The translations under genes were made by a program, and so were the position numbers. Shown here one piece after another: positions 14,830 to 23,632 of a stretch of DNA of 64,000 nucleotides (positions are counted from its first letter, which is position 1; each line of letters starts with the position of its first letter). The stretch is from an uncultured Acidobacteriota bacterium (GTDB taxonomy: Bacteria; Acidobacteriota; Vicinamibacteria; Vicinamibacterales; UBA2999). The DNA lies in NCBI GenBank assembly GCA_963772955.1, contig CAVYZF010000008.1:51615-115614 (forward strand), written 5' to 3'. The notes under the pieces are model-generated. The model searched no databases and was not told where the DNA came from. It worked only from the letters and a program-made list of their open reading frames with translations.

Positions 14830-17541
14830 CTACGCCGTTGCTGCCGTTGGCGCCTGGCCCTGAGGTGGATCGATGCCGAAGCGCTGGCGCTTGAGGTACA
14901 GGCCCTTACGCGACAGACCGAGCATCGCCGCCGTCTCCTCAATCCGTCCGCCACACTTCTTGAGCGCGTATTGCATCATCGTCTGCTCGATATGCCGGAC
15001 GGCAGCCGCCATCGGTTGGTCGAGACGGACGACGACTTCCGTCGGATCGAGCATGCGTTCTGACGCCGGGATCGTGCGGCGTGACGCCGCGATTTCCGGG
15101 GAGAGATGTTCGGGCATCATCACGGCGCCAGACTCGGCGAGAGCGGCGAGGCGGCGCATCTCGTTCGCCAGTTGCCGCGTGTTGCCCGGCCAGCGATAGA
15201 GCACCAGATACTCCATCGTCTCCTCGGCGAGCCGGAGGTCGCCCTTCGAGTACTCCTGCGAGAACTTCTGCAGGTAGTGATTGGCGAGTGTGGGGATCTC
15301 GACCCGTCGTTCGCGCAGGGGGGGCAGGTGCAGGCGGACGATGCTGAGGCGGTAGAAGAGGTCTTCGCGGAACCGTCCCTGGCTGACGAGCGTGTCGAGG
15401 TCGGCGTTGGTCGCGACGATCAGGCGCACGTCGACTTTGCTCGGTTGGGCCTCGCCGACCGGGTGAATCTCGTTCGATTCCAGGAATCGCAGCAGCTTTG
15501 GCTGAACCTCGAGGCTGGTGTCGCCGATCTCGTCGAGGAACAGTGTGCCGCCCGTGGCCGCACGCACAACACCTTGAAAGTTGTCGACCGCGCCGGTGAA
15601 GGCGCCGCGGCGATGACCGAACAGCTGCGAGTCGAGCATGTCCTTCGGCGTCGAGGTGCAGTTGAACGGCAGGAAGGTCGACTGCGCGCGGGTGGAGCAG
15701 GCGTGGATTGTCCGGGCGAGGACTTCCTTGCCGGTGCCTGTCTCACCTGTGATGAGGACCGTGACGTTCGTCGGTGCGATGCGCCGCGCGACGCTGAGGA
15801 TGCCCTGCATCTCCTCAGCGAGGAAGATGGCGCCACCCTGGCTCTCGATCGGATCCGCGGGCCACAGCGCCGCGCGGTTCCGCTCTTCCTCGCGCGCGTG
15901 TTCCAGCGCCACTGCGGCGCGACCGAGGCGAAGAATATTGCCCAGGAGAATTGCTTTGGCAGGGTCATCGGGGATTTGACACGAGAGCGCTATTGACTCA
16001 CCTCGATGCTCGCCCAACGGCAGTACGCAGTGGGTGAATGAATGCATCCCGGCCGGTGAGCGCGATTTCGTAACGCGCACTTCTGGTGAACAGCGCGTGG
16101 ACTGGATGGCCTCCATGAGCTCACTGCCCAGGAGGCCGGCATCATGAGACAAATCAAAGGCACTCGCGAGAGATGCGGCGAGCCTTGAGTCCAACTGCGA
16201 TTCGATCTGCGACGATGCATCGACTTCGATCGATCTCTTCGCCGAGAAGTTGTCAAACTCGTTCTCAGAGCAAGCGTTGCCTTGCTCGCGCCAGATTCTC
16301 TTTGCGCGATCGCTCGATTGCCTTTGCAACTCCGGGGACGTCTGTTGGATCTGAGAACACAGTTGCCAGAACATGCCCAAGTGCTCACGCAAAGCCCACG
16401 CGCCAAGCTCGGTCGCTCTGGCGATTGAGCGAGACGCTTCGTCAGGCTGTTCGGCTTTAACCATTGCTAACGCACGAAGCATGAGCGCTGTGCATTCGAT
16501 TTTTCGGTCTCCGACTTTTCGCGCCTCTTCGATTGCGACGTCAGCGATCCGCGAAGCGTCATGCCATTTGCGCTGCCGCAAGAGTAGGCGCGCACGCGTG
16601 ATCAAACTCGATCGCGCCGGAAACGGCATCTCGGATGGATCCCGAGTCTGCAGTCCAGTGAGCGTATCGAGCGCTCGCTCACACTCGGGCAATCGATTGG
16701 TGGCGATATACAGACGCGCGAGGCCGTCGAGCACGCTTTGGCGCACCTCGTCAATCTTGCTACCGGCTAAGCCAAGGAAGGTACGCTCGGCTCTAGCGAA
16801 TTTTCCGGTCTCTAGGTATAGGTGGCCGAGGTTATTGAGAACTGTTGACTCGGATGTGCCGGAGATCGCTCCGAAACGCTTGGCTCGATCTAGATGCTCC
16901 TCTGCGAGCGGAAGGTCAGAGTCAAAGAACTCAATGCAGAAGGCATTGATCTCGCAAAGCTGTTGGAGCCACGCGTTCGGGTGTGTTTCGAGCAGTGAGC
17001 ACGCGATTCTTAGGTGACGGCGCGCTTGTACCACGTTGCCGACCTGGGCTTCTTGACGAGCGACCGACTCATGCAGAAGGGCAGTGAGGTGAGGTTCGGC
17101 AGAGCGCATCGTCAAACGACGAACTTCCGACAAGAGAGGACCGACGATTTCTAGTGGTTGCCTCTCCGAGACGATTCTGAAAATGGCGAGTGCTGATCGT
17201 GCAGCCTGAGCAATGTCGCCGCCTTCCTTGGCAGAGTGAAGTGATCGCTGAAGGCTCTGTAACGCCTCTTCAGTGCGACCGAGATCTCGAGCGACGATCC
17301 CGAGAACCATTTCAGCCCGGGGATGGCCACGCACCCACTCCTGTCGAGCTATTACTTGACGCGCGACATGACCGGCAGACTCGAGCCTTCCAGTGCGAGC
17401 CAATGATTCAGCAATCAGGAGTTGGTGCTCATAGGACGGGAACCTCTGAATTTCCCGGAGAGCGGCCGCGCTGTCGGTACTAATTTCCTGGAACCGACCA
17501 AGACGAAACAGTGACTCGACTTCGGAGTAGCTGAGGGGCAT
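14830..17541 (-). CDS. Sigma-54 enhancer-binding protein with a long N-terminal TPR-like region
   Basis: GETGTGKE, SQLFGHRRGAFTGA, FLDEI, WPGN and a Fis-type HTH. About 430 aa of helical repeats (e.g. VLNNLGHLYLETGKFARAE). No receiver domain. Confidence 0.92.
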   Translation of the reverse strand: MPLSYSEVESLFRLGRFQEISTDSAAALREIQRFPSYEHQLLIAESLARTGRLESAGHVARQVIARQEWVRGHPRAEMVLGIVARDLGRTEEALQSLQRSLHSAKEGGDIAQAARSALAIFRIVSERQPLEIVGPLLSEVRRLTMRSAEPHLTALLHESVARQEAQVGNVVQARRHLRIACSLLETHPNAWLQQLCEINAFCIEFFDSDLPLAEEHLDRAKRFGAISGTSESTVLNNLGHLYLETGKFARAERTFLGLAGSKIDEVRQSVLDGLARLYIATNRLPECERALDTLTGLQTRDPSEMPFPARSSLITRARLLLRQRKWHDASRIADVAIEEARKVGDRKIECTALMLRALAMVKAEQPDEASRSIARATELGAWALREHLGMFWQLCSQIQQTSPELQRQSSDRAKRIWREQGNACSENEFDNFSAKRSIEVDASSQIESQLDSRLAASLASAFDLSHDAGLLGSELMEAIQSTRCSPEVRVTKSRSPAGMHSFTHCVLPLGEHRGESIALSCQIPDDPAKAILLGNILRLGRAAVALEHAREEERNRAALWPADPIESQGGAIFLAEEMQGILSVARRIAPTNVTVLITGETGTGKEVLARTIHACSTRAQSTFLPFNCTSTPKDMLDSQLFGHRRGAFTGAVDNFQGVVRAATGGTLFLDEIGDTSLEVQPKLLRFLESNEIHPVGEAQPSKVDVRLIVATNADLDTLVSQGRFREDLFYRLSIVRLHLPPLRERRVEIPTLANHYLQKFSQEYSKGDLRLAEETMEYLVLYRWPGNTRQLANEMRRLAALAESGAVMMPEHLSPEIAASRRTIPASERMLDPTEVVVRLDQPMAAAVRHIEQTMMQYALKKCGGRIEETAAMLGLSRKGLYLKRQRFGIDPPQGQAPTAATA

Positions 17542-17585: not shown

Positions 17586-19502
17586 CTAGCCGTGACGCTG
17601 TTGAAACGATACGAGCTTGTTGATCTTTGGTCTAACCTGAGACAAATGTTCTCCGAACGTATTTGCCAATTGCTCGAAGGCATAAACGTGTCTGTGCGTG
17701 AATACGTCTATGGCCGGAGAGTATGCCGTTAATACCCCCTGGAAGTCACCCTGCGGCCCCATCACAGGCGTGCTCACTGCACTACGCGGTCGAGGCTCCA
17801 CGACTAGCGCTGCTTGTCCGAGATCTAGTGTGGCGTCGGAGTTGCTGATCGTCTGTCGATTAGCCGCGACCCAACCTGTTACGCGCTCACCAAGACGGAC
17901 GCGAAGGCCAAGAAGGGCGCTGAACTTCTCGTCACTCACGTATTCACAAAAGAGGTCGTCCGATTCTTGCGAGTACCTGAAGAAGGCGCATGCACTTGAT
18001 GGAGTGAGTTGTCTCACCGCCTGACCGAGTCCACTCATTGCCTCAGTCAGATTGCGGGCCTCAAGAAGGTTCTGCCGTGTAGCGGCCAACAACGCGCCAT
18101 CGGCAGCGGCCGCGCGAATTTCTTCCAACGCACTTGAGCCGGAGTCCGAAGCGGCGTGAGAGACGAGCAGTGTTCGTGCTTGCTCGCCTGCTTCGTTCGC
18201 CTCATCAACGATTTCGTGGTAGGCCGAGAGAAACTGATCGACGACCAGAGGATCGTACATCGTCCCCCTGCGCTCTCGCAGTATGGCGAACGCTTCAGAG
18301 ACACTCAGTCGGGGTCGATATGGCCGGTCTGAGTTCAAGGCGTCGAAACAGTCGACGACCGCCAGAATCCTGGCGCCGAGGGGAATATCCGTTCCGGAGA
18401 TTCCATTCGGATAGCCTTGACCACTCCACTGTTCGTGATGATGTCGCACAATTGGGACGACAGGGTAGGGAAAACGAATCGACGAAAGAAGGTCAGCGCC
18501 GATGTCGGCGTGTCGCTTCATTGTTTCGAACTCGGCAGGTGTCAGTTTCCCTGGCTTGTTCAGAATGTGCTCTGGGATGGCGAGCTTCCCCATGTCATGG
18601 AGTAAGGCTGCCGCCTCGATGGCCTTCAACTGAGAGTGTTCCGTAACGCCAAGCCTCCTCGCGAGCTCGACCGCGTACACTTGCACTCGTCGGATGTGGC
18701 CGTGAGTGATTTGGTCTTTTGCGTCGACCGCCATAGCCAGTGTCTCTATCGTCGACAGATAGAGATCGTTGACCTGAGTCACGTGGCGATTTGCATCGGC
18801 GAGGCGGCCGAGCGAGGTCCGAAACGTTAGATAGGTGATGGCAAGGATCGGAAGGATGACACTTACGGCCGTCAGATCGATGCTCTGGCGATAGGTTACG
18901 AGGAGCATCGCCACGCAGGCCCCGCCGAGGTAGTTCAAGCCGACCCACGCGAAGTTTTGTTTCCAAATCTCGATCGGAGAGCTCGACTTTTCGTAGCTGA
19001 CGGCGACGGCGATGAAGAAGCTGTTGATTGCGAAATAAGTAGCCGACATGACAGCGACCGGGAAGATGATCTCCTCGAGTCGGGGTGATGAAGGCGTTTG
19101 GGGGAGGAGGAGTCGGAAGATGTGCGCAGCTACCCAGATCGCGGTCGCTGCCGCGCATATGTTGAAGGCGGCTCGAACCTTCGAATGACGTCTACTACTG
19201 GCCCAGCTGCTAAGGATGATCGCGTCGAGCGTTGTGATGATCGTCGCTGCCGATGGTCCAAACAGAAGTACTGCGGCAAAGACAAAGGCCTCGGATACCG
19301 AGATCCGAGCATTGATGGAGGGCAGCTTAATGCTGAATGAGCCGGTTAGGAACGCTAGCCCCGCCAACACCAGCCATTGTGGGCTGGGCGGTGCCACCGT
19401 CAGATCGTAGACGGATGCCGCAACAGCGAGCGTTCCTACAACAACGATAACTGTGATGTAGACCCGGGCTCCAAGTGAGAGCCGGGCAGCGCGATGCGGC
19501 AT
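17586..19502 (-). CDS. Membrane-sensor HD-GYP phosphodiesterase with a C-terminal GAF-like domain
   Basis: About 6-7 TM helices in the first 230 aa; AVDAKD, HDMGK, HHHEQWSGQGYP, DCFDAL..DRPYR; GAF-like tail (GERVTGWVAANRQ). Confidence 0.9.
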   Translation of the reverse strand: MPHRAARLSLGARVYITVIVVVGTLAVAASVYDLTVAPPSPQWLVLAGLAFLTGSFSIKLPSINARISVSEAFVFAAVLLFGPSAATIITTLDAIILSSWASSRRHSKVRAAFNICAAATAIWVAAHIFRLLLPQTPSSPRLEEIIFPVAVMSATYFAINSFFIAVAVSYEKSSSPIEIWKQNFAWVGLNYLGGACVAMLLVTYRQSIDLTAVSVILPILAITYLTFRTSLGRLADANRHVTQVNDLYLSTIETLAMAVDAKDQITHGHIRRVQVYAVELARRLGVTEHSQLKAIEAAALLHDMGKLAIPEHILNKPGKLTPAEFETMKRHADIGADLLSSIRFPYPVVPIVRHHHEQWSGQGYPNGISGTDIPLGARILAVVDCFDALNSDRPYRPRLSVSEAFAILRERRGTMYDPLVVDQFLSAYHEIVDEANEAGEQARTLLVSHAASDSGSSALEEIRAAAADGALLAATRQNLLEARNLTEAMSGLGQAVRQLTPSSACAFFRYSQESDDLFCEYVSDEKFSALLGLRVRLGERVTGWVAANRQTISNSDATLDLGQAALVVEPRPRSAVSTPVMGPQGDFQGVLTAYSPAIDVFTHRHVYAFEQLANTFGEHLSQVRPKINKLVSFQQRHG

Positions 19503-19508
19503 CGCCCC

Positions 19509-19528
19509 GCCGGGCCTCCTAGCCCGGC
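19509..19528 (-). promoter_or_regulatory. Hairpin with an AGGAG loop upstream of the HD-GYP start
   Basis: Minus strand GCCGGGC-TAGGAG-GCCCGGC, ending 6 nt before the ATG at 19502. Confidence 0.4.
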
Positions 19529-19543
19529 AGGCGCTATATCGGC

Positions 19544-19573
19544 CTATTCGCCCCAGATAATTAGTCTTCGCAT
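19544..19573 (-). CDS. 9-aa micropeptide MRRLIIWGE
   Basis: AGGAG (19585-19581), 7-nt spacer, then ATG CGA AGA CTA ATT ATC TGG GGC GAA TAG. IIWGE resembles the IVWSD repeat of the upstream peptidase. Confidence 0.65.
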   Translation of the reverse strand: MRRLIIWGE

Positions 19574-19614
19574 TTTTGCACTCCTGAAGCTAGCGGCCGA
19601 TTCTGCTTTTGCCC

Positions 19615-21321
19615 TTAGTCGGACCACACGATGCCGTCGGACCACACGATGCCGTCGGACCACACGATGCCGTCGGACCACACGATGCCGTCGGACCACA
19701 CGATGCCGTCGGACCACACGATGCCGTCGGACCACACGATGCCGTCGGACCACACGATGCCGTCGGACCACACGATGCCGTCGGACCACACGATGCCGTC
19801 GGACCATACGATGCCGTCGGACCACACGATGCCGTCAGACCATACGATGCCGTCGGACCATACGATGCCGTCGGACCACACGATGCCGTCAGACCACACG
19901 ATGCCGTCAGACCGTGCAGCAGTGCGACACGTCGAGGCCGTGCAGAATGTCATCTTCGACGGCGTGAGGTTGGACTGGGCTATCAGAGCGGACGCGGTGG
20001 TCGGAGCCAAAAACGAGGCCACCGCCAGATCGAGATTCAGCGACCCGGCTCCCGAGATCAGATAGGCCGTGGAGAGCTTGTTGCTTGAGTGTTGGAGAAG
20101 TCGGCGAACCGACTCTGTGCCCTTGACACCACTTTCCAGCAACACGCTCACAGCACCCGACACAACCGCCGCCGCCATGCTGGTGCCGGACAGCTGCAGC
20201 CGGCGACCCTCTTTCAGCGACACCACCAGCTCGGGATGCTCACGCACCAGCGTCGAGCCAGGCGCGGCCAGACCCAGAATCTTGTTCCCCGGTGCCACCA
20301 GGTCCGGCTTCACCAGGTGGTCGAACATCGTCGGGCCCTTCGAGCTGTAGCTCGCGACCTCGTCGTCGCTCCGATAGGGCGTGCCCTTGGTGTTCACCGC
20401 GCCAACAGTGATGGCGAACGGCGAGATGCCCGGCGTCGTGATACCGCCGTAGATCGGACGCCCGTCTTCGGCCTTGCCGAAGTTACCGGCGGAGGTGACG
20501 ACGGTGATGCCCGCGCGGTAGGCGCGCTCGACCGCCTGGCACAGCGGGTCGTCACGCCAGCCCTGAGTAACGGGCCCGCCGAGCGACATGTTGATGACTT
20601 TGATGTTGTAACGCTTGTGATTGGCGAGCACCCAGTCCATGGCCTCGATCACATCGCCGACCACGCCTCTGCCCTTCGCGTCCAGGACCTTCAGGCTGAT
20701 GATGTTCGCGCCCGGCGCCACGCCCTCGGCGTCGTCGAAGCGGTTGCGGCCCGCAGCGGCGATGATCCCCGCCACGTGCGTGCCATGGCCATTGAAATCA
20801 AGGCCAGGTCCGCGATCGTCGGTGAAGTCGCGCGTCGCGATGATGCGCCCCCCGAACTCGGGCATGATCGCCACGCCGGAGTCGATGACGGCCACCCCGA
20901 TGCCCTTGCCAGTCAGCGGCCCGATGCCTTTGGCCCAGCCGCCTTCGTGAACGAGATCCGCACCGATTGATTGATTGGTCACCGCCATGTGGGCCGTAAC
21001 CACGTGATTGCTCGAAAGCTGGTCGGCCGCGGGATCGTCGGCCAGTGCCGCTAACGCTCCCGCGGGGACATCAACCACCGCTCCCGTGGCCAGACGCTTC
21101 TTGATTCGCAACCCGTGACGCACCGCCAGGTCGTCCACCTGCGCAGCCGTTCCGGTGACGATGACGCTCGCCCCCTGAACGTCGCCTGTGCGCAAGCGCT
21201 CCGCGAGATCCTTGGAAAGACGTGCATGCCGCCCCTGGGCCGACGCGGCGTCGGCCGATAAGAAGAAAGCAGCACACAGGACAACGGCGAATCGAAGGTT
21301 CCGGGTGTTGAATCTGGCCAT
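19615..21321 (-). CDS. Secreted S8 subtilisin-like peptidase with a C-terminal (GIVWSD)x16 tail
   Basis: Signal peptide and propeptide; catalytic VAVIDSG, GHGTHVAG, SAGN and SGTSMA motifs; repeat tail. Confidence 0.95.
   Translation of the reverse strand: MARFNTRNLRFAVVLCAAFFLSADAASAQGRHARLSKDLAERLRTGDVQGASVIVTGTAAQVDDLAVRHGLRIKKRLATGAVVDVPAGALAALADDPAADQLSSNHVVTAHMAVTNQSIGADLVHEGGWAKGIGPLTGKGIGVAVIDSGVAIMPEFGGRIIATRDFTDDRGPGLDFNGHGTHVAGIIAAAGRNRFDDAEGVAPGANIISLKVLDAKGRGVVGDVIEAMDWVLANHKRYNIKVINMSLGGPVTQGWRDDPLCQAVERAYRAGITVVTSAGNFGKAEDGRPIYGGITTPGISPFAITVGAVNTKGTPYRSDDEVASYSSKGPTMFDHLVKPDLVAPGNKILGLAAPGSTLVREHPELVVSLKEGRRLQLSGTSMAAAVVSGAVSVLLESGVKGTESVRRLLQHSSNKLSTAYLISGAGSLNLDLAVASFLAPTTASALIAQSNLTPSKMTFCTASTCRTAARSDGIVWSDGIVWSDGIVWSDGIVWSDGIVWSDGIVWSDGIVWSDGIVWSDGIVWSDGIVWSDGIVWSDGIVWSDGIVWSDGIVWSDGIVWSDGIVWSD
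19618..19911 (-). repeat. 18-bp coding tandem repeat, 16 units plus a partial unit
   Basis: Plus-strand unit GTCGGACCACACGATGCC spans 19618-19905 (288 bp). The variants are only GTG/GTA (Val) and TCC/TCT (Ser). Confidence 0.97.
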
Positions 21322-21345: not shown

Positions 21346-21618
21346 TTACAGTCGAACTGCCGGGCTGACTCCGAGAGACGCGCCCGACGCGGAGGTCGAA
21401 AATGCCTGCGGTCTGAACCCCAGGTCGAAGAGCGACTGGACGAGAACGCGCTGGGAAACACCGAGCGTGCGGACAGTACGAAGCCGGCCGTCACGGATGC
21501 GGTTGTAGATGGTGCGACGGGAGACGCCGAGAAGCGCTGCTGCCTGATCGATGGTGACGCTGCGACCGAGTCGCGGCTCGAAACTGGATGATTCTGTGGT
21601 CAGGGGGGACTCAAACAT
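21346..21618 (-). CDS. Small excisionase-like (HTH_17/MerR-type) DNA-binding protein
   Basis: VTIDQAAALLGVSRRTIYNRIRDGRLRTVR. RBS AGGAG at 21632-21628. Confidence 0.85.
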   Translation of the reverse strand: MFESPLTTESSSFEPRLGRSVTIDQAAALLGVSRRTIYNRIRDGRLRTVRTLGVSQRVLVQSLFDLGFRPQAFSTSASGASLGVSPAVRL

Positions 21619-21647: not shown

Positions 21648-21665
21648 CTGCGGGTGAGGTGCCAA
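21648..21665 (-). promoter_or_regulatory. Sigma-54 (-24/-12) promoter of the HTH-peptidase operon
   Basis: TTGGCACCTCACCCGCAG: TGGCAC -24 box, GG-N10-GC spacing, about 30 nt upstream of the ATG. Confidence 0.75.
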
Positions 21666-21705: not shown

Positions 21706-21871
21706 CGCGCGGGTTTCTACGGTGGAAGCTCAGCGCGGGGGGTGCGACAGATCCGCGCACCCGGGCAGGTCGTTGACTGACACTATGGTCACAGTCGAGC
21801 GAAGGCGCGATATGTCGAGGGTTGCACGACATTATTTTGATCGGCCAACAAGTTGGCCGGGGTGGCCAGGA

Positions 21872-23632
21872 TTGACGCCGCCTCGGTCGCGTCTGCCAGG
21901 CGTGCTCGTCATGGGCGTCGTGTTCGTGGGTGCACTTTTCTGGTGGCGGGGCTGCGAGCCCGAGCGCTCATCGCTCAGCGGCGGTGCATCGAAATCGACG
22001 AGCGAGCCTCGCGAGCGCGGCGGGCAGGTCGTCGCGTCCCTGAGGGCGGAGCCTCGAACCTTCAATCGACTCGTCGCCAGCGACCAGACGACCGAGGTCC
22101 TTGCGATGCTGATGCAGGGGCGATTGGTTCGCATCAACCGGTCGACGTTCGAGCTGGAGCCATGGCTCGCCGAGCGATGGGAATCGACTGAGGACGGTCG
22201 GACCCACACGTTGCACCTTCGGCAGGGCGTCGTCTGGTCGGACGGAACGCCGTTCACGTCAGCGGACGTCCTCTTCTCTCTGCGAGCCGCCTACGATCCG
22301 AACGTCAAGAGCCCGGTGGCGAGCAGCATCACGATCAGCGGGCAGCCAATCACAGCCACCGCCCCTGACACTTCCACCGTCGTCCTGAAGTACCCGTCGC
22401 CCTCCGGCCCGGGAATCCGACTGCTCGACATGCTGCCGATCATGCCGAGGCACAAGCTCGAATCGGCGCTGTCTTCCGGCACCTTCGCGCAGGCGTGGGG
22501 AACGACGACGACGCCCAGCGACCTCGTAGGCACGGGCCCGTTCACACTGCGCGAGTATCAGCCTGGACAGCGTCTCGTCTTTGATCGAAATCAACGGTAC
22601 TGGCGCAAGGCCGAGAACGGCGATGCGCTCCCGTATATCGATCGTCTTGTGCTGGAGCTCGTGCCGGATCAGAACGCGGAGCTCCTGAGGCTGCAATCGG
22701 GAGCGACCGATCTCACGCACAGCGAGCTGCGATCGGATGACTACATTCCCGTGCGCCGCGCCGAGGCTGAAGGCAAGCTGACGATGGTCGAGCTCGGCGT
22801 GTCGCCGGATGCAGACGCGTTCTGGTTCTGTTTGAAGCCGGAGAAGAAGGCGCGCGACCCACGATTCGCCTTCGTCAGCAGGCGCGAGTTCCGGCAGGCC
22901 ATCTCTCACGCCGTCGATCGCGAAGCATTCGCGCAGACGGTGTTCCTCGGCGAGGCCGTTCCGATCTGGGGTCCAATTACGCCCGGCAACCGACTGTGGT
23001 TCTCACCGAACGTGCCACGCTACCCGTTCGACGTTGCACGCTCGCGTCAGCTGCTCGCGAGCATCGGCCTCGAGGATCGCAACGGCAACGGCGTCGTGGA
23101 AGACAAGGCTGGGACCGAGGCGCGCTTCACGGTGATCACGCAACAGGGCATCGGGTACTACGAGCGCGGCGCCACGGTTCTTCGCGAACAGGCTGCGGCG
23201 GTTGGAATCGCGCTCGACGTCGTGCCGCTCGAGTTCTCCGCGATGGTCACGCGGCTGCTGGCCTGCGACTACGACGCGATCTACATGCGGCCGCTCACGA
23301 CCGATCTCGATCCGGCAGGCAACCTCGATTACTGGCTCAGTTCCGGATCGGCGCACCTGTGGAACATGCATCAGGAAAAGCCGTCGACGGATTGGGAGCA
23401 GCGGATCGATATGCTGATGGGTGAGCAATCGACAACACTCGGCCTCCAGCGCCGACGGGAAATCTTCGCAGAGGTTCAGAACGTATTCGCCGAGAATGTC
23501 CCCGTGCTGTACTTCGCGTCGCCGCGGCTGTACTACGCGCACAGCCAGCGGCTGCGCGGCGTGGTGCCTTCGATCCTGCGTCCACCCGTGCTGTGGAATG
23601 CTGACTCGTTCAGCATCGCGGGCGCTCGTTGA
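21872..23632 (+). CDS. Oligopeptide/dipeptide ABC transporter substrate-binding protein (family 5)
   Basis: EPRTFN, PWLAERW, WSDGTPFTSADV, GTGPF and FRQAISHAVDR motifs. Start uncertain; the ORF is open from 21722. Confidence 0.92.
   Translation: MTPPRSRLPGVLVMGVVFVGALFWWRGCEPERSSLSGGASKSTSEPRERGGQVVASLRAEPRTFNRLVASDQTTEVLAMLMQGRLVRINRSTFELEPWLAERWESTEDGRTHTLHLRQGVVWSDGTPFTSADVLFSLRAAYDPNVKSPVASSITISGQPITATAPDTSTVVLKYPSPSGPGIRLLDMLPIMPRHKLESALSSGTFAQAWGTTTTPSDLVGTGPFTLREYQPGQRLVFDRNQRYWRKAENGDALPYIDRLVLELVPDQNAELLRLQSGATDLTHSELRSDDYIPVRRAEAEGKLTMVELGVSPDADAFWFCLKPEKKARDPRFAFVSRREFRQAISHAVDREAFAQTVFLGEAVPIWGPITPGNRLWFSPNVPRYPFDVARSRQLLASIGLEDRNGNGVVEDKAGTEARFTVITQQGIGYYERGATVLREQAAAVGIALDVVPLEFSAMVTRLLACDYDAIYMRPLTTDLDPAGNLDYWLSSGSAHLWNMHQEKPSTDWEQRIDMLMGEQSTTLGLQRRREIFAEVQNVFAENVPVLYFASPRLYYAHSQRLRGVVPSILRPPVLWNADSFSIAGAR

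What the first reader, a model, noticed from the sequence alone, without database searches (positions are those of the whole stretch)
19544..19585. Hidden 9-aa micro-ORF MRRLIIWGE that mimics the protease repeat
Seen: in the 112-nt gap between the protease and HD-GYP genes there is an AGGAG at 7-nt spacing, followed by a 9-codon ORF. Its end (LIIWGE) aligns with GIVWSD as I-[IV]-W-small-acidic, and both chains terminate on the acidic residue. Inference: a separately translated variant peptide. Lacking a signal peptide, it could be a cytoplasmic ligand for the TPR activator, an antagonist, or a translational-coupling leader for the HD-GYP gene. Standard gene callers would miss it.
Basis: partly seen in the sequence, partly recalled or inferred. 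Interest (0 to 1): 0.87.

Follow-up and report, generated by a model that had tools for sequence, protein, structure and literature searches.

The report
Conserved nine-codon peptide gene, Vicinamibacterales
A nine-codon gene sits between a secreted protease and a signalling enzyme in a group of soil bacteria, is kept across many species, and encodes a peptide resembling the repeat unit in the protease's tail, so it looks like a real, overlooked mini-gene whose function is still untested.

Summary
On the minus strand, AGGAG (19585-19581) lies 7 nt before ATG (19573). The nine codons read MRRLIIWGE and end at TAG (19546-19544), inside the 112-nt gap between an S8 protease with 16 SDGIVW repeats and a MASE9-HD-GYP-GAF gene.

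Within this one genome it is barely more than chance. Comparison with other genomes is decisive. The same ORF, M-x(1-2)-[LIV]-I-[IV]-W-[GS]-[DE]-stop, lies at this position in 13 of 14 loci found by homology. It also occurs in 96 non-redundant Acidobacteriota/Vicinamibacterales loci; 89 of the 96 have a Shine-Dalgarno core, and all six Leu codons are used. The pattern gave 33 matches in 401 genomes of the order, and the reversed-pattern control gave none.

In this genus a second copy follows the ribonucleotide reductase gene nrdJ, in front of differing downstream genes. Tandem copies occur, and a paralogous module carries its own 15-codon IIW ORF.

Best reading: a translated micro-gene whose peptide acts in trans as an intracellular analogue of the protease repeat. 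It is probably also translationally coupled to the HD-GYP gene. No experiment has shown translation, and no binding partner has been shown. No print precedent was found.

The parts
19581..19585 (-). Shine-Dalgarno core AGGAG, 7 nt before the ATG of the micro-ORF
   Evidence: Read. A GGAG/GAGG core lies 4-18 nt before the ATG in 89 of 96 non-redundant protease-context loci, against 5 of 25 pattern hits without that context.
19544..19573 (-). Micro-ORF: 9 codons plus TAG, MRRLIIWGE
   Evidence: Translated. Conserved as M-x(1-2)-[LIV]-I-[IV]-W-[GS]-[DE]-stop.
19537..19542 (-). CCGATA motif, one base after the stop codon
   Evidence: Invariant CGATA in alignment A1 of 32 loci. Present in 40 of 96 loci, and always together with an NTA fourth codon. 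Absent from the nrdJ-linked copies. Function unknown.
19504..19534 (-). GC-rich stem-loop that ends 1-2 nt before the HD-GYP ATG and holds an AGGAGG in its loop and stem
   Evidence: Folds at -27.2 kcal/mol with z -3.8; also seen. Stem-loops of unrelated sequence sit at the same place in many relatives (16 of 54 with z below -2). No T-tract terminator was found.
19615..21321 (-). Secreted-type S8 subtilase with a C-terminal array of 16 SDGIVW units (array 19618-19913)
   Evidence: Pfam Peptidase_S8 4e-45. Tandem repeat. AF2 models the catalytic domain confidently; the tail 457-568 has pLDDT 25-33 and no secondary structure. 62 of 92 orthologues end exactly on W-x-[DE].
17586..19502 (-). MASE9 / HD-GYP (HD_5) / GAF protein, the gene directly after the micro-ORF
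   Evidence: Pfam. The gap from the micro-ORF stop to the first possible start has a median of 35.5 nt and is at most 69 nt in 78 of 88 loci.
14830..17541 (-). Sigma-54 activator (bEBP) with an N-terminal TPR superhelix plus a small alpha/beta domain
   Evidence: Pfam Sigma54_activat, TPR and HTH_8. Present downstream on the same strand in 22 of 24 loci with enough sequence. AF2 pLDDT 84.
21722..23632 (+). Divergently transcribed SBP_bac_5 (Opp/Dpp-like) solute-binding protein, followed by permeases, a DHDPS-family gene and an aminotransferase
   Evidence: Pfam and NCBIfam. Divergent SBP5 lies upstream of the protease in 28 of 30 loci with enough sequence.
21346..21618 (-). 90-aa HTH_17 ORF ahead of the protease, preceded by a sigma-54-like TGGCAC-N5-CCGCA at 21664-21649
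   Evidence: The promoter-like site was found in 5 of 41 loci, and in 3 of the 5 (L121, L139, L148) it is the same TGGCAC-N5-CCGCA form.

Best explanation
The 30-nt ORF is a genuine protein-coding micro-gene of Vicinamibacterales (Acidobacteriota). It has its own Shine-Dalgarno site and yields an 8-9-residue cytoplasmic peptide: Met, one or two variable and mostly basic residues, then L-I-I-W-G-E. That hexapeptide is close to the consensus of the short W-containing units ([ILV]-[IVLT]-W-[GSA]-[DEN]) arrayed in the predicted-disordered C-terminal tail of the secreted S8 protease encoded just upstream.

The gene belongs to a conserved module. An Opp-like peptide importer is transcribed divergently. 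On the other strand lie the S8 W-repeat protease, the micro-ORF, the MASE9-HD-GYP-GAF gene and a TPR sigma-54 activator, in that order.

Inferred mechanism: the protease tail is cut into short W-peptides outside the cell. These are taken up and sensed by a cytoplasmic or membrane component of the module. The micro-gene supplies an internally made look-alike that is similar but systematically not identical (E where the repeat has D). It would occupy the same site as a basal ligand or a competitor that sets the threshold.

At this locus the ORF's translation probably also opens the stem-loop in front of the HD-GYP start codon, which would couple the two genes.

Shown: conservation, coding-type substitution pattern, RBS, synteny, and a second genomic copy. 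Inferred: translation, cleavage of the tail, uptake, the receptor, and the sign of the effect.
For: 1. The ORF is present wherever the module is. 13 of 14 HD-GYP loci found by protein homology that have a W-repeat protease upstream carry it, own locus included. None of the 6 loci without the protease does.

2. The degenerate pattern matched 33 times in 32 of 401 genomes of the order, and the reversed-pattern control matched none. All 30 fetched loci have the protease upstream and the HD-GYP gene downstream.

3. Selection acts on the amino acids. All six Leu codons are used (CTA 30, CTC 16, CTG 15, TTA 11, TTG 7, CTT 7). Gly uses four codons. At the RGN codon there are 92 Gly, 4 Ser and 0 Arg, against 6 Arg in 25 context-free hits. 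The stop is TAG, TAA or TGA but always at the same codon. The two codons after ATG vary freely.

4. A Shine-Dalgarno core is present in 89 of 96 loci. Flanking intergenic DNA is not conserved (alignment A1).

5. The peptide appears to matter away from this locus. In this genus, 11 of 18 fetched regions place M-x(1-2)-LIIW[GS]E right after the nrdJ tail, and the non-redundant set holds 13 such copies. Four of these show a TGATG stop/start overlap. The own genome has MKLIIWGE at G000:C9:629430-629456, behind a Ribonuc_red_lgC+TSCPD gene. The genes downstream of these copies differ between genomes.

6. Tandem copies, each with its own RBS, occur in G019, G336 and G351.

7. A paralogous S8/HD-GYP module carries its own conserved 15-codon ORF, M[RK][KT]RVTIIWLP...R, in 3 of 3 loci, with synonymous differences between them.

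8. The protease tail is modelled without structure (pLDDT 25-33). Its unit length varies from 6 to 11 residues between species. Both fit a string of short peptides better than a folded repeat domain.

9. Weak hint of expression: in one soil metatranscriptome library, four contigs from relatives cover 19520-19588.
Against: - There is no direct evidence of translation and no peptide detection. The RNA-library contigs may include DNA and sum over relatives.
- No binding partner has been shown.
- The TPR sensor's best compact structural match is MalT domain III, alongside generic TPR proteins. It is not a peptide-pheromone receptor.
- The peptide is not a copy of the local repeat. Only 1 of 91 loci shows 5/5 identity with the majority repeat core, and most show 3-4 of 5. 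The peptide stays nearly constant while the repeats diverge, so a shared receptor is an assumption.
- Nucleotide-level features exist only at the HD-GYP site. NTA fourth codon and CCGATA co-occur in 40 of 40 loci, and there is a stem-loop abutting the HD-GYP ATG. These point to a cis role there.
- The micro-ORF stop lies a median of about 36 nt from the HD-GYP start.
- A 9-mer without an export signal would be exposed to cytoplasmic peptidases (general knowledge).
- Cleavage of the protease tail and uptake by the neighbouring transporter are inferred from gene neighbourhood only.
- Within the single genome the motif count is near chance.
Confidence: 0.5

Rival explanations
1. The ORF is a purely cis-acting leader (uORF). 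It is translated only to control the HD-GYP gene behind it. A ribosome reading or terminating on it melts, or fails to melt, the stem-loop that abuts the HD-GYP start codon. The conserved residues would act as a nascent chain at the peptidyl-transferase centre. The released peptide would have no function.
For: - The ORF sits close to the HD-GYP start. The median gap is 35.5 nt, and 78 of 88 loci have a gap of at most 69 nt.
- A strong stem-loop lies between the stop codon and the ATG in the own locus (-27.2 kcal/mol, z -3.8). Stem-loops of different sequence occur at the same place in relatives.
- The HD-GYP start often lacks a free Shine-Dalgarno site.
- In paralogous module B the 15-codon ORF stops 9-13 nt before the HD-GYP ATG.
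- There is extra nucleotide conservation only in this context (NTA codon and CCGATA).
- The last residues before the stop are conserved, and TAG is preferred as the stop (65 of 96). Both are features seen in arrest peptides.
Against: - The same peptide is encoded behind nrdJ in 13 non-redundant loci. There the downstream genes differ between genomes, and CCGATA and the NTA codon are absent.
- Tandem duplicates lie more than 100 nt further from the HD-GYP start.
- The stem-loop is not universal. The median z is -1.2, and 38 of 54 loci are not below -2.
- This reading does not explain the resemblance to the protease repeat.
- No terminator or antiterminator pair was found, and there is no Rfam match.
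Confidence: 0.2
2. It is a real trans-acting micro-peptide, but its target lies outside the repeat-peptide circuit. One possibility is an amphipathic interfacial peptide (basic N-terminus, L-I-I-W core, acidic C-terminus) sensed within the membrane by the MASE9 domain of the HD-GYP protein. Another is a factor tied to ribonucleotide reductase or the growth state. On this reading the likeness to the protease repeat reflects common descent or a shared physico-chemical need.
For: - The nrdJ-linked copies are conserved and in part translationally coupled to nrdJ.
- Positions 2-3 are mostly K or R: 44 and 57 of 97.
- MASE9 has been suggested to bind its ligand within the membrane (bioRxiv 10.1101/2021.11.05.467447, passages read).
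- The peptide stays constant while the repeats vary.
Against: - Nine residues cannot span a membrane.
- Paralogous module B has a micro-ORF, but its HD-GYP protein has no MASE9 domain.
- The nrdJ-linked copy was seen only in this genus. It looks like a later duplication rather than the ancestral site.
- The tight linkage to W-repeat proteases (96 loci) is not explained.
Confidence: 0.15
3. It is not a gene. The conserved island would be a DNA or RNA element (operator, promoter, small RNA), or the decayed remnant of a 17th protease repeat that happens to be open.
For: - The CCGATA motif and the invariant A at the third position of codon 4 show that some nucleotide-level constraint exists in 40 loci.
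- The repeat unit and the ORF share 9 of 18 bases (counted by eye).
- Single-genome statistics are near chance.
Against: - Variation falls on synonymous positions, and all six Leu codons occur, including ones that differ at two positions.
- The ATG, the stop position and the RBS are kept across at least five families of the order.
- There is no Rfam family above chance, and no sigma-70-like promoter or terminator.
- The copies behind nrdJ keep the reading frame without any of the flanking motifs.
- A decaying remnant would not stay intact across families while the functional repeats themselves diverge.
Confidence: 0.04

Closest known systems
mccA, the 7-codon microcin C precursor gene of E. 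coli (abstracts of PMC4231749 and PMC6495379 read)
   Same: - It is an extremely short gene with its own ribosome-binding site that is really translated.
- Its length is conserved.
- A stem-loop lies right after the tiny ORF and before the next gene, and ribosome binding to the ORF changes what happens there.
- An SBP_bac_5-type peptide importer is relevant to the product (importer role recalled, not from a call).
   Different: - MccA ends in Asn and is adenylated by MccB. Here the peptide ends in Glu or Asp.
- No ThiF/MccB-like gene is among the neighbours scanned.
- MccA sequences are not conserved, whereas this peptide is.
- The stem-loop here has no T-tract.
- There is no sign of an antibiotic role.
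PatS / PatX / HetN of Anabaena (abstract start of PMC7761841 seen in the listing)
   Same: A very short peptide gene and a larger protein carry the same short active motif (there RGSGR) and act on one regulator. The logic matches 'a micro-ORF repeats a motif of a bigger neighbour'.
   Different: - The motif, phylum and receptor (HetR) are different.
- PatS is 13-17 residues (recalled).
- HetN carries one copy of the motif, not an array of 5-20 copies at the C-terminus of a secreted protease.
- A shared receptor has not been shown here.
RRNPP peptide signalling of Firmicutes, including the cCF10/iCF10 agonist-antagonist pair acting on PrgX (recalled, no call)
   Same: - Short hydrophobic peptides are involved.
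- A neighbouring Opp-type importer is present.
- There is a cytoplasmic regulator with a TPR sensor.
- There is precedent for two similar peptides from different genes competing for one receptor, one of them cut out of a larger secreted protein.
   Different: - The phylum is Acidobacteriota.
- The TPR is fused to a sigma-54 AAA+ activator.
- The micro-ORF has no signal or export sequence and needs no processing.
- The putative signal units are fused to their own protease.
- The fold search gave MalT domain III and generic TPR proteins, not RRNPP receptors.
Leader and arrest peptides (trpL-type attenuators, TnaC, drug-sensing leaders such as ErmBL or the cat/cmlA leaders; recalled)
   Same: A short ORF lies directly upstream of a regulated gene, RNA structure sits between them, and the residues next to the stop codon are conserved.
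   Different: - There is no run of regulatory codons, only a single Trp.
- No terminator/antiterminator alternative was found.
- The same peptide is kept at a second locus with no constant downstream gene.
- The peptide resembles a neighbouring protein's repeat.

Membership tests
Bona fide protein-coding gene (translated small ORF) | A start codon with a ribosome-binding site at proper spacing, conserved across species | tested here: met
   The ATG is invariant and the spacing fixed. A GGAG/GAGG core lies at -18..-4 in 89 of 96 loci. Own locus: AGGAG-N7-ATG.
Bona fide protein-coding gene (translated small ORF) | Substitutions concentrated on synonymous sites, with the reading frame and stop position preserved | tested here: met
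   Six Leu codons and four Gly codons are used, Ile is ATT or ATC, and Glu/Asp use all four GAN codons. No AGR (Arg) occurs in 109 context loci, against 6 of 25 chance hits. The stop varies between TAG, TAA and TGA at a fixed codon. The homology-ascertained set shows the same pattern.
Bona fide protein-coding gene (translated small ORF) | Direct evidence of translation (ribosome profiling, reporter fusion or peptide mass spectrometry) | not testable with these tools
   Only contigs from one metatranscriptome library cover the ORF. That does not show translation.
RRNPP-type peptide quorum sensing | The signal peptide is made as an exported precursor with a secretion signal | tested here: not met
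   The micro-ORF product is 8-9 residues with no room for a signal sequence. The protease carries an N-terminal hydrophobic leader (read, no predictor run).
RRNPP-type peptide quorum sensing | A cytoplasmic TPR receptor of the Rap/NprR/PlcR/PrgX fold | tested here: inconclusive
   A TPR superhelix is present (Pfam; AF2 pLDDT 84). The Foldseek PDB hits are APC subunits, MalT domain III (TMt 0.74), OGT and Tom70; no RRNPP receptor is among the listed top hits.
RRNPP-type peptide quorum sensing | An oligopeptide permease for re-import | tested here: inconclusive
   A divergent SBP_bac_5 gene plus permeases is conserved next to the protease in 28 of 30 loci. The transported substrate is unknown.
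Microcin C-like peptide-nucleotide system (mccA) | The precursor ends in Asn and an MccB (ThiF/E1-like) adenylyltransferase gene is adjacent | tested here: not met
   The peptide ends in E or D in all 109 context copies. None of the neighbours scanned has such a domain.
Amino-acid attenuator leader peptide | Tandem codons of the regulating amino acid, with alternative terminator and antiterminator hairpins | tested here: not met
   There is a single Trp codon. No terminator-like site lies in 19350-19700. Residues that an attenuator would not need (L, G, E/D) are conserved.
Ribosome arrest peptide acting at termination | Conserved residues next to the stop codon and a dependent downstream gene | tested here: inconclusive
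   The W-G-[ED]-stop ending is conserved and TAG is preferred. The HD-GYP gene follows in context 1, but no constant gene follows in the nrdJ context. Stalling itself cannot be tested here.
Known RNA family (Rfam) | A covariance-model match | tested here: not met
   In 19300-19800 only two chance-level hits appeared (E 2.4 and 2.7, far below gathering scores), and neither overlaps the ORF.

The most novel reading that the evidence does not exclude
Vicinamibacterales may run a previously unrecognised peptide circuit. In it, the signal precursors are polyprotein-like arrays of 6-11-residue W-peptides fused to the C-terminus of their own secreted subtilase. The peptides are re-imported by the neighbouring Opp-like system and read out through c-di-GMP turnover (HD-GYP) and a TPR sigma-54 activator. 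A leaderless 8-9-residue peptide from one of the smallest conserved genes known acts as the built-in intracellular antagonist or primer. A second copy is translationally coupled to ribonucleotide reductase, which would feed the cell's replication state into the same receptor.
Probability: 0.2. Interest if true: 0.92.

Novelty: new variant of a known kind. Interest (0 to 1): 0.8.

Why it matters
Genes of 8-9 codons are invisible to annotation pipelines, and very few are known to be functional; mccA is the textbook case. This one is conserved across at least five families of an abundant but almost unstudied order of soil bacteria. It has a clear amino-acid signature, two independent genomic homes and a paralogue.

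It gives a concrete, cheap entry point into three questions. How do Acidobacteriota use peptides and c-di-GMP? What are the tryptophan-repeat tails on secreted subtilases for? Can a cell make an internal look-alike of its own extracellular peptide?

The work needed is modest: a synthetic 9-mer, a handful of purified domains, and start-codon and recoding mutants in a heterologous host.

If the peptide proves to be only a coupling device, it would still be an unusually well-conserved uORF with a sequence-specific nascent chain.

Tried and rejected
**Co-folding.** I co-folded the activator's sensor region (residues 1-565, 16-row alignment A2) with the last 36 residues of the protease, since the tool asks for chains of 30 or more residues and the 9-mer itself could not be sent. 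The verdict was 'no answer', score 0.00, and controls were not run. This counts neither for nor against binding.

**Fold search.** The search with the TPR sensor model returned only generic TPR proteins and MalT domain III. It gives no specific pointer to a peptide receptor.

**Stop-codon readthrough into HD-GYP.** Rejected. The gap is 41 nt in the own locus (not in frame), and the frame differs between close relatives.

**Sigma-54 promoter inside or after the ORF.** Rejected by eye: the GG-N10-GC spacing is not met. A sigma-54-like site does exist upstream of the protease, but in only 5 of 41 loci.

**Pairing of CCGATA with upstream sequence.** The own locus has AUCGGCC...GGCCGAU, but this is not seen in relatives. 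Dropped.

**Intrinsic terminators after the nrdJ-linked copies.** A strong hairpin lies within 160 nt in 7 of 13 loci, but a T-rich tail follows in only 1 of 13. I therefore do not claim the ORF ends an operon. I rely instead on the differing downstream genes.

**RNA evidence.** Only one RNA library held part of the stretch, and only contigs were available. Regions without cover mean nothing, and depth is not a measure of expression. No habitat is inferred.

**Literature.**
- Searches for the peptide strings gave 11 papers, none relevant by title or abstract.
- A search for Vicinamibacter, subtilisin, tandem repeat and signalling peptide gave nothing relevant among the 15 listed.
- A search for MASE9 and HD-GYP turned up one preprint, read in passages.
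- I found no description of this ORF in those searches.
- Supplements were closed and not seen. Figure S5 of the MASE9 preprint might list related proteins.

**Counting notes.**
- Counts include genome G009, which is flagged unpublished.
- 14 of the 120 stretches were not re-found by my regular expression and were left out of the counts.
Full report
**What is there.** All the genes concerned lie on the minus strand.
- A 568-aa S8 subtilase (21321-19615; Pfam Peptidase_S8) ends in 16.4 head-to-tail copies of an 18-nt unit (19618-19913). These read ...SDGIVWSDGIVWSD-stop.
- After 29 nt comes AGGAG (19585-19581). Seven nt later come ATG CGA AGA CTA ATT ATC TGG GGC GAA TAG (19573-19544), which reads MRRLIIWGE.
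- Forty-one nt further on is the ATG (19502) of a MASE9/HD-GYP/GAF protein.
- Next is a 903-aa sigma-54 activator with a TPR N-terminal region.
- On the other strand, diverging from the protease, are an SBP_bac_5 binding protein, permeases, a DHDPS-family gene and a class-V aminotransferase.

**Is it more than chance?** Within this genome, hardly.
- AGGAG-N7-ATG occurs seven times in the window.
- A permissive six-frame search of the 7.9-Mb genome for a hydrophobic-hydrophobic-hydrophobic-W-small-acidic/amide motif gave 28 hits, against 29 in the reversed genome.
- Adding the requirement of a stop codon right after the motif gave 2 hits against 0, and about one would be expected.
- A mechanical 93-aa ORF shares the frame.

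The case rests on other genomes.

**Comparative evidence.**
- I searched 41 genomes, the own genome and 40 relatives, with the HD-GYP protein and examined the 20 loci fetched for the best matches. 14 of them have a W-repeat protease, or its visible tail, directly upstream. 13 of those 14 have an ORF M-x-x-[LIV]-I-[IV]-W-[GS]-([DE])-stop between the two genes, own locus included. One locus has two intact copies plus a decayed one. The one exception has a 19-nt gap. None of the six loci in which another gene precedes the HD-GYP gene has the ORF.
- A degenerate DNA pattern for the 9-codon ORF matched 33 times in 32 of 401 genomes of the order. The same pattern read backwards matched nowhere. All 30 loci fetched show the order protease - ORF - HD-GYP.
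- The same pattern was run over one genome per prokaryotic species. I re-found 106 of them, and 78 have the protease and/or HD-GYP context. Those 78 are MAG records titled Acidobacteriota or Vicinamibacterales, with a few differently titled bins. The rest are scattered over unrelated phyla and lack an RBS.
- After removing duplicates, the pooled set holds 96 protease-context copies, 13 copies behind nrdJ and 25 others.

**Coding signature.**
- The fourth codon uses all six Leu codons (CTA 30, CTC 16, CTG 15, TTA 11, TTG 7, CTT 7), plus a few Val and Ile codons.
- Ile is ATT or ATC. Gly uses four codons.
- At the RGN position allowed by the pattern there are 92 Gly, 4 Ser and no Arg. In the 25 context-free hits, 6 are Arg.
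- The last residue is Glu or Asp.
- The stop is TAG, TAA or TGA, always at the same codon.
- The one or two residues after Met vary, mostly K/R/S/A and then R/K/T/P.
- A GGAG or GAGG core lies 4-18 nt before the ATG in 89 of 96 loci, against 5 of 25 context-free hits.
- In 44 of 87 loci no other in-frame start exists upstream.
- In an alignment of 32 loci the only conserved island is RBS - ATG - ORF - CCGATA, and the flanks are unalignable.
- No Rfam family matches.

This is the pattern of a translated gene under selection on its amino acids. It is not the pattern of an RNA or DNA element.

**A second home and relatives.**
- The genome's other six-frame hit is MKLIIWGE (G000:C9:629430-629456). 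It has GGAGAG six nt before the ATG. It lies about 75 nt after a gene whose product carries the ribonucleotide reductase barrel and TSCPD domains, i.e. an nrdJ-type reductase.
- A core pattern matched 34 times in 24 of the genus's 36 genomes, with 0 control matches. Of the 18 regions I fetched, 11 place M-x(1-2)-LIIW[GS]E right after the same reductase tail. In four of them the start overlaps the reductase stop as TGATG. Six are the protease context and one is unrelated.
- These copies lack the CCGATA motif and use CTG, TTG or CTC for Leu. The genes that follow them differ between genomes: a Tat-signal protein, a membrane protein, a dehydrogenase, and others.
- An 8-codon form also occurs in protease context in another genus. 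Tandem duplicates occur in G336 and G351, as in G019.
- The genome has two paralogous S8/HD-GYP-GAF-GGDEF modules. One of them (sigma-54 activator - S8 with DDNIVWSTSG units - ORF - HD-GYP) carries a 15-codon ORF, M[RK][KT]RVTIIWLP...R. It is conserved in 3 of 3 loci, with many synonymous differences. The other module has no such ORF.

**The module.**
- A divergent SBP_bac_5 gene lies upstream of the protease in 28 of 30 loci with enough sequence. A TPR-type sigma-54 activator lies after the HD-GYP gene in 22 of 24.
- The protease tails carry units with the core [ILV]-[IVLT]-W-[GSA]-[DEN]. Unit length runs from 6 to about 11 residues.
- 62 of 92 proteases end exactly on W-x-[DE].
- AlphaFold2, with a 32-row alignment, models the catalytic domain well. 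The tail (457-568) gets pLDDT 25-33 and no secondary structure.
- The micro-peptide is nearer to the family consensus than to its own neighbour's unit. Identity over the five core positions is mostly 3 or 4 of 5, and 5 of 5 in 1 of 91 loci. The peptide has E where the repeat has D in 45 of 91 loci.

**Local cis features.**
- The ORF's stop lies a median of 35.5 nt before the first possible HD-GYP start.
- In the own locus a stem-loop of -27 kcal/mol (19534-19504; z -3.8) ends just before that ATG and partly buries an AGGAGG.
- Stem-loops of unrelated sequence occupy the same place in many relatives. This is not universal: 16 of 54 have z below -2, and the median z is -1.2.
- There is no T-tract terminator.
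- In 40 of 96 loci the stop is followed by [G/A]CCGATA. In all 40 the fourth codon ends in A, a rare NTA codon.
- TAG is the stop in 65 of 96 protease-context copies and 11 of 13 nrdJ-context copies. TAG ends about 26% of long ORFs in this genome (not corrected for phylogeny).
- These points are unexplained. They suggest an additional cis role at the HD-GYP site.

**Expression.** One soil metatranscriptome library holds four contigs from relatives that cover 19520-19588. The longest is 253 nt and runs on, unlike the window, on both sides. The tool warns that DNA may be present in such libraries and that contig depth is no measure of expression. I count this as a weak hint only.

**Interpretation.** I hold with high confidence (about 0.9) that this is a real, translated micro-gene. 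I favour a trans-acting peptide for four reasons:
- it is kept at a second locus with no constant downstream gene;
- it is duplicated in tandem;
- a paralogous module has its own version;
- only an amino-acid-level function explains its likeness to the protease units.

The most economical model has several steps. The disordered tail is a string of short W-peptides released outside the cell. The neighbouring importer brings them back. A module component senses them; the candidates are the TPR sensor, the GAF domain or the MASE9 domain. The micro-gene supplies an internal analogue. Each of these steps is inference from gene neighbourhood and sequence, and none was tested. Coupling of HD-GYP translation to the ORF is likely at this locus and is compatible with the trans model. 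A purely cis reading is the main rival.

**Comparison with known systems.**
- The nearest precedent for a functional gene this small, with a stem-loop right behind it, is mccA (abstracts of PMC4231749 and PMC6495379). Its defining features, a C-terminal Asn and an adjacent MccB gene, are not met here.
- The logic of a tiny peptide sharing an active motif with a larger protein recalls PatS/HetN (PMC7761841, seen in the listing).
- The idea of two similar peptides competing at one TPR regulator recalls cCF10/iCF10 (recalled).
- Membership of the RRNPP family is not supported. The ORF has no export signal, the phylum differs, and the fold search was generic.

Full-text searches for the peptide strings, and for the organism together with protease terms, found no description of this ORF.

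**Verdict.** The finding is a new, well-conserved micro-gene family. Its mechanism is unproven but testable.

Noticed in passing
G000:C9:629430-629456 (outside the window); loci L176, L181-L191, L102, L141, L145, L147, L174: A second copy of the micro-ORF (M-x(1-2)-LIIW[GS]E) lies directly behind the nrdJ-type ribonucleotide reductase gene in many genomes of this genus. In some it overlaps the reductase stop as TGATG. The genes downstream of it differ between genomes.
   Followed up: yes
G000:C10:150732-156400 (loci L003, L209); L206, L208: A paralogous module has the order sigma-54 activator, S8 protease with DDNIVWSTSG units, 15-codon ORF MRKRVTIIWLPADVR, HD-GYP-GAF-GGDEF. The ORF is conserved in 3 of 3 loci. 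In G000 the protease of this module has an in-frame TAA. A third module (DUF6152 - S8 - HD-GYP-GAF-GGDEF, C10:333190-339173) has no micro-ORF.
   Followed up: partly
window 19544-19546 and the equivalent position in 109 loci: The stop codon TAG is strongly preferred: 65 of 96 protease-context copies and 11 of 13 nrdJ-context copies. TAG ends about 26% of long ORFs in this genome. The comparison is not corrected for relatedness, and the preference is unexplained.
   Followed up: partly
window 19537-19542 and codon 19564-19562: [G/A]CCGATA right after the stop co-occurs in 40 of 40 loci with a rare NTA codon at position 4 of the ORF. Neither feature appears in the nrdJ-linked copies. This is a nucleotide-level constraint of unknown function.
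   Followed up: partly
window 21346-21618 (-) and 21649-21664 (-): A 90-aa HTH_17 ORF lies in the 400-nt gap upstream of the protease. It is preceded by a sigma-54-like TGGCACCTCACCCGCA. Such a site was found in 5 of 41 loci, and 3 of the 5 (L121, L139, L148) share the same CCGCA form. This may be the promoter through which the TPR activator drives the operon.
   Followed up: partly
L010 (G019), L178 (G351), L179 (G336): Tandem duplicates of the micro-ORF occur, each with its own RBS. In G019 the copy nearest the HD-GYP gene is frame-shifted and has lost its stop, while two upstream copies are intact.
   Followed up: partly
L068, L072, L073, L078, L101, L104, L106, L138, L157, L160: MAG records titled Bifidobacteriaceae, Phycisphaerales, Acidimicrobiia, Planctomycetota, Cyanobacteriota, Anaerolineaceae or Chloroflexota carry the complete Vicinamibacterales-type locus. 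These contigs are probably mis-binned or mislabelled.
   Followed up: no
G014:C204, G425:C361, G007:C111 (L199, L200, L204): In short-read MAGs, orthologous proteases break off at contig ends inside or just before the repeat array. The micro-ORF is therefore often unassembled, and absence counts understate its frequency.
   Followed up: partly
window 19544-19825 (-): A mechanical 93-aa ORF with a GTG start runs through the repeat array in another frame and ends at the micro-ORF's stop. It is an artefact of the stop-free repeat and is not conserved.
   Followed up: yes
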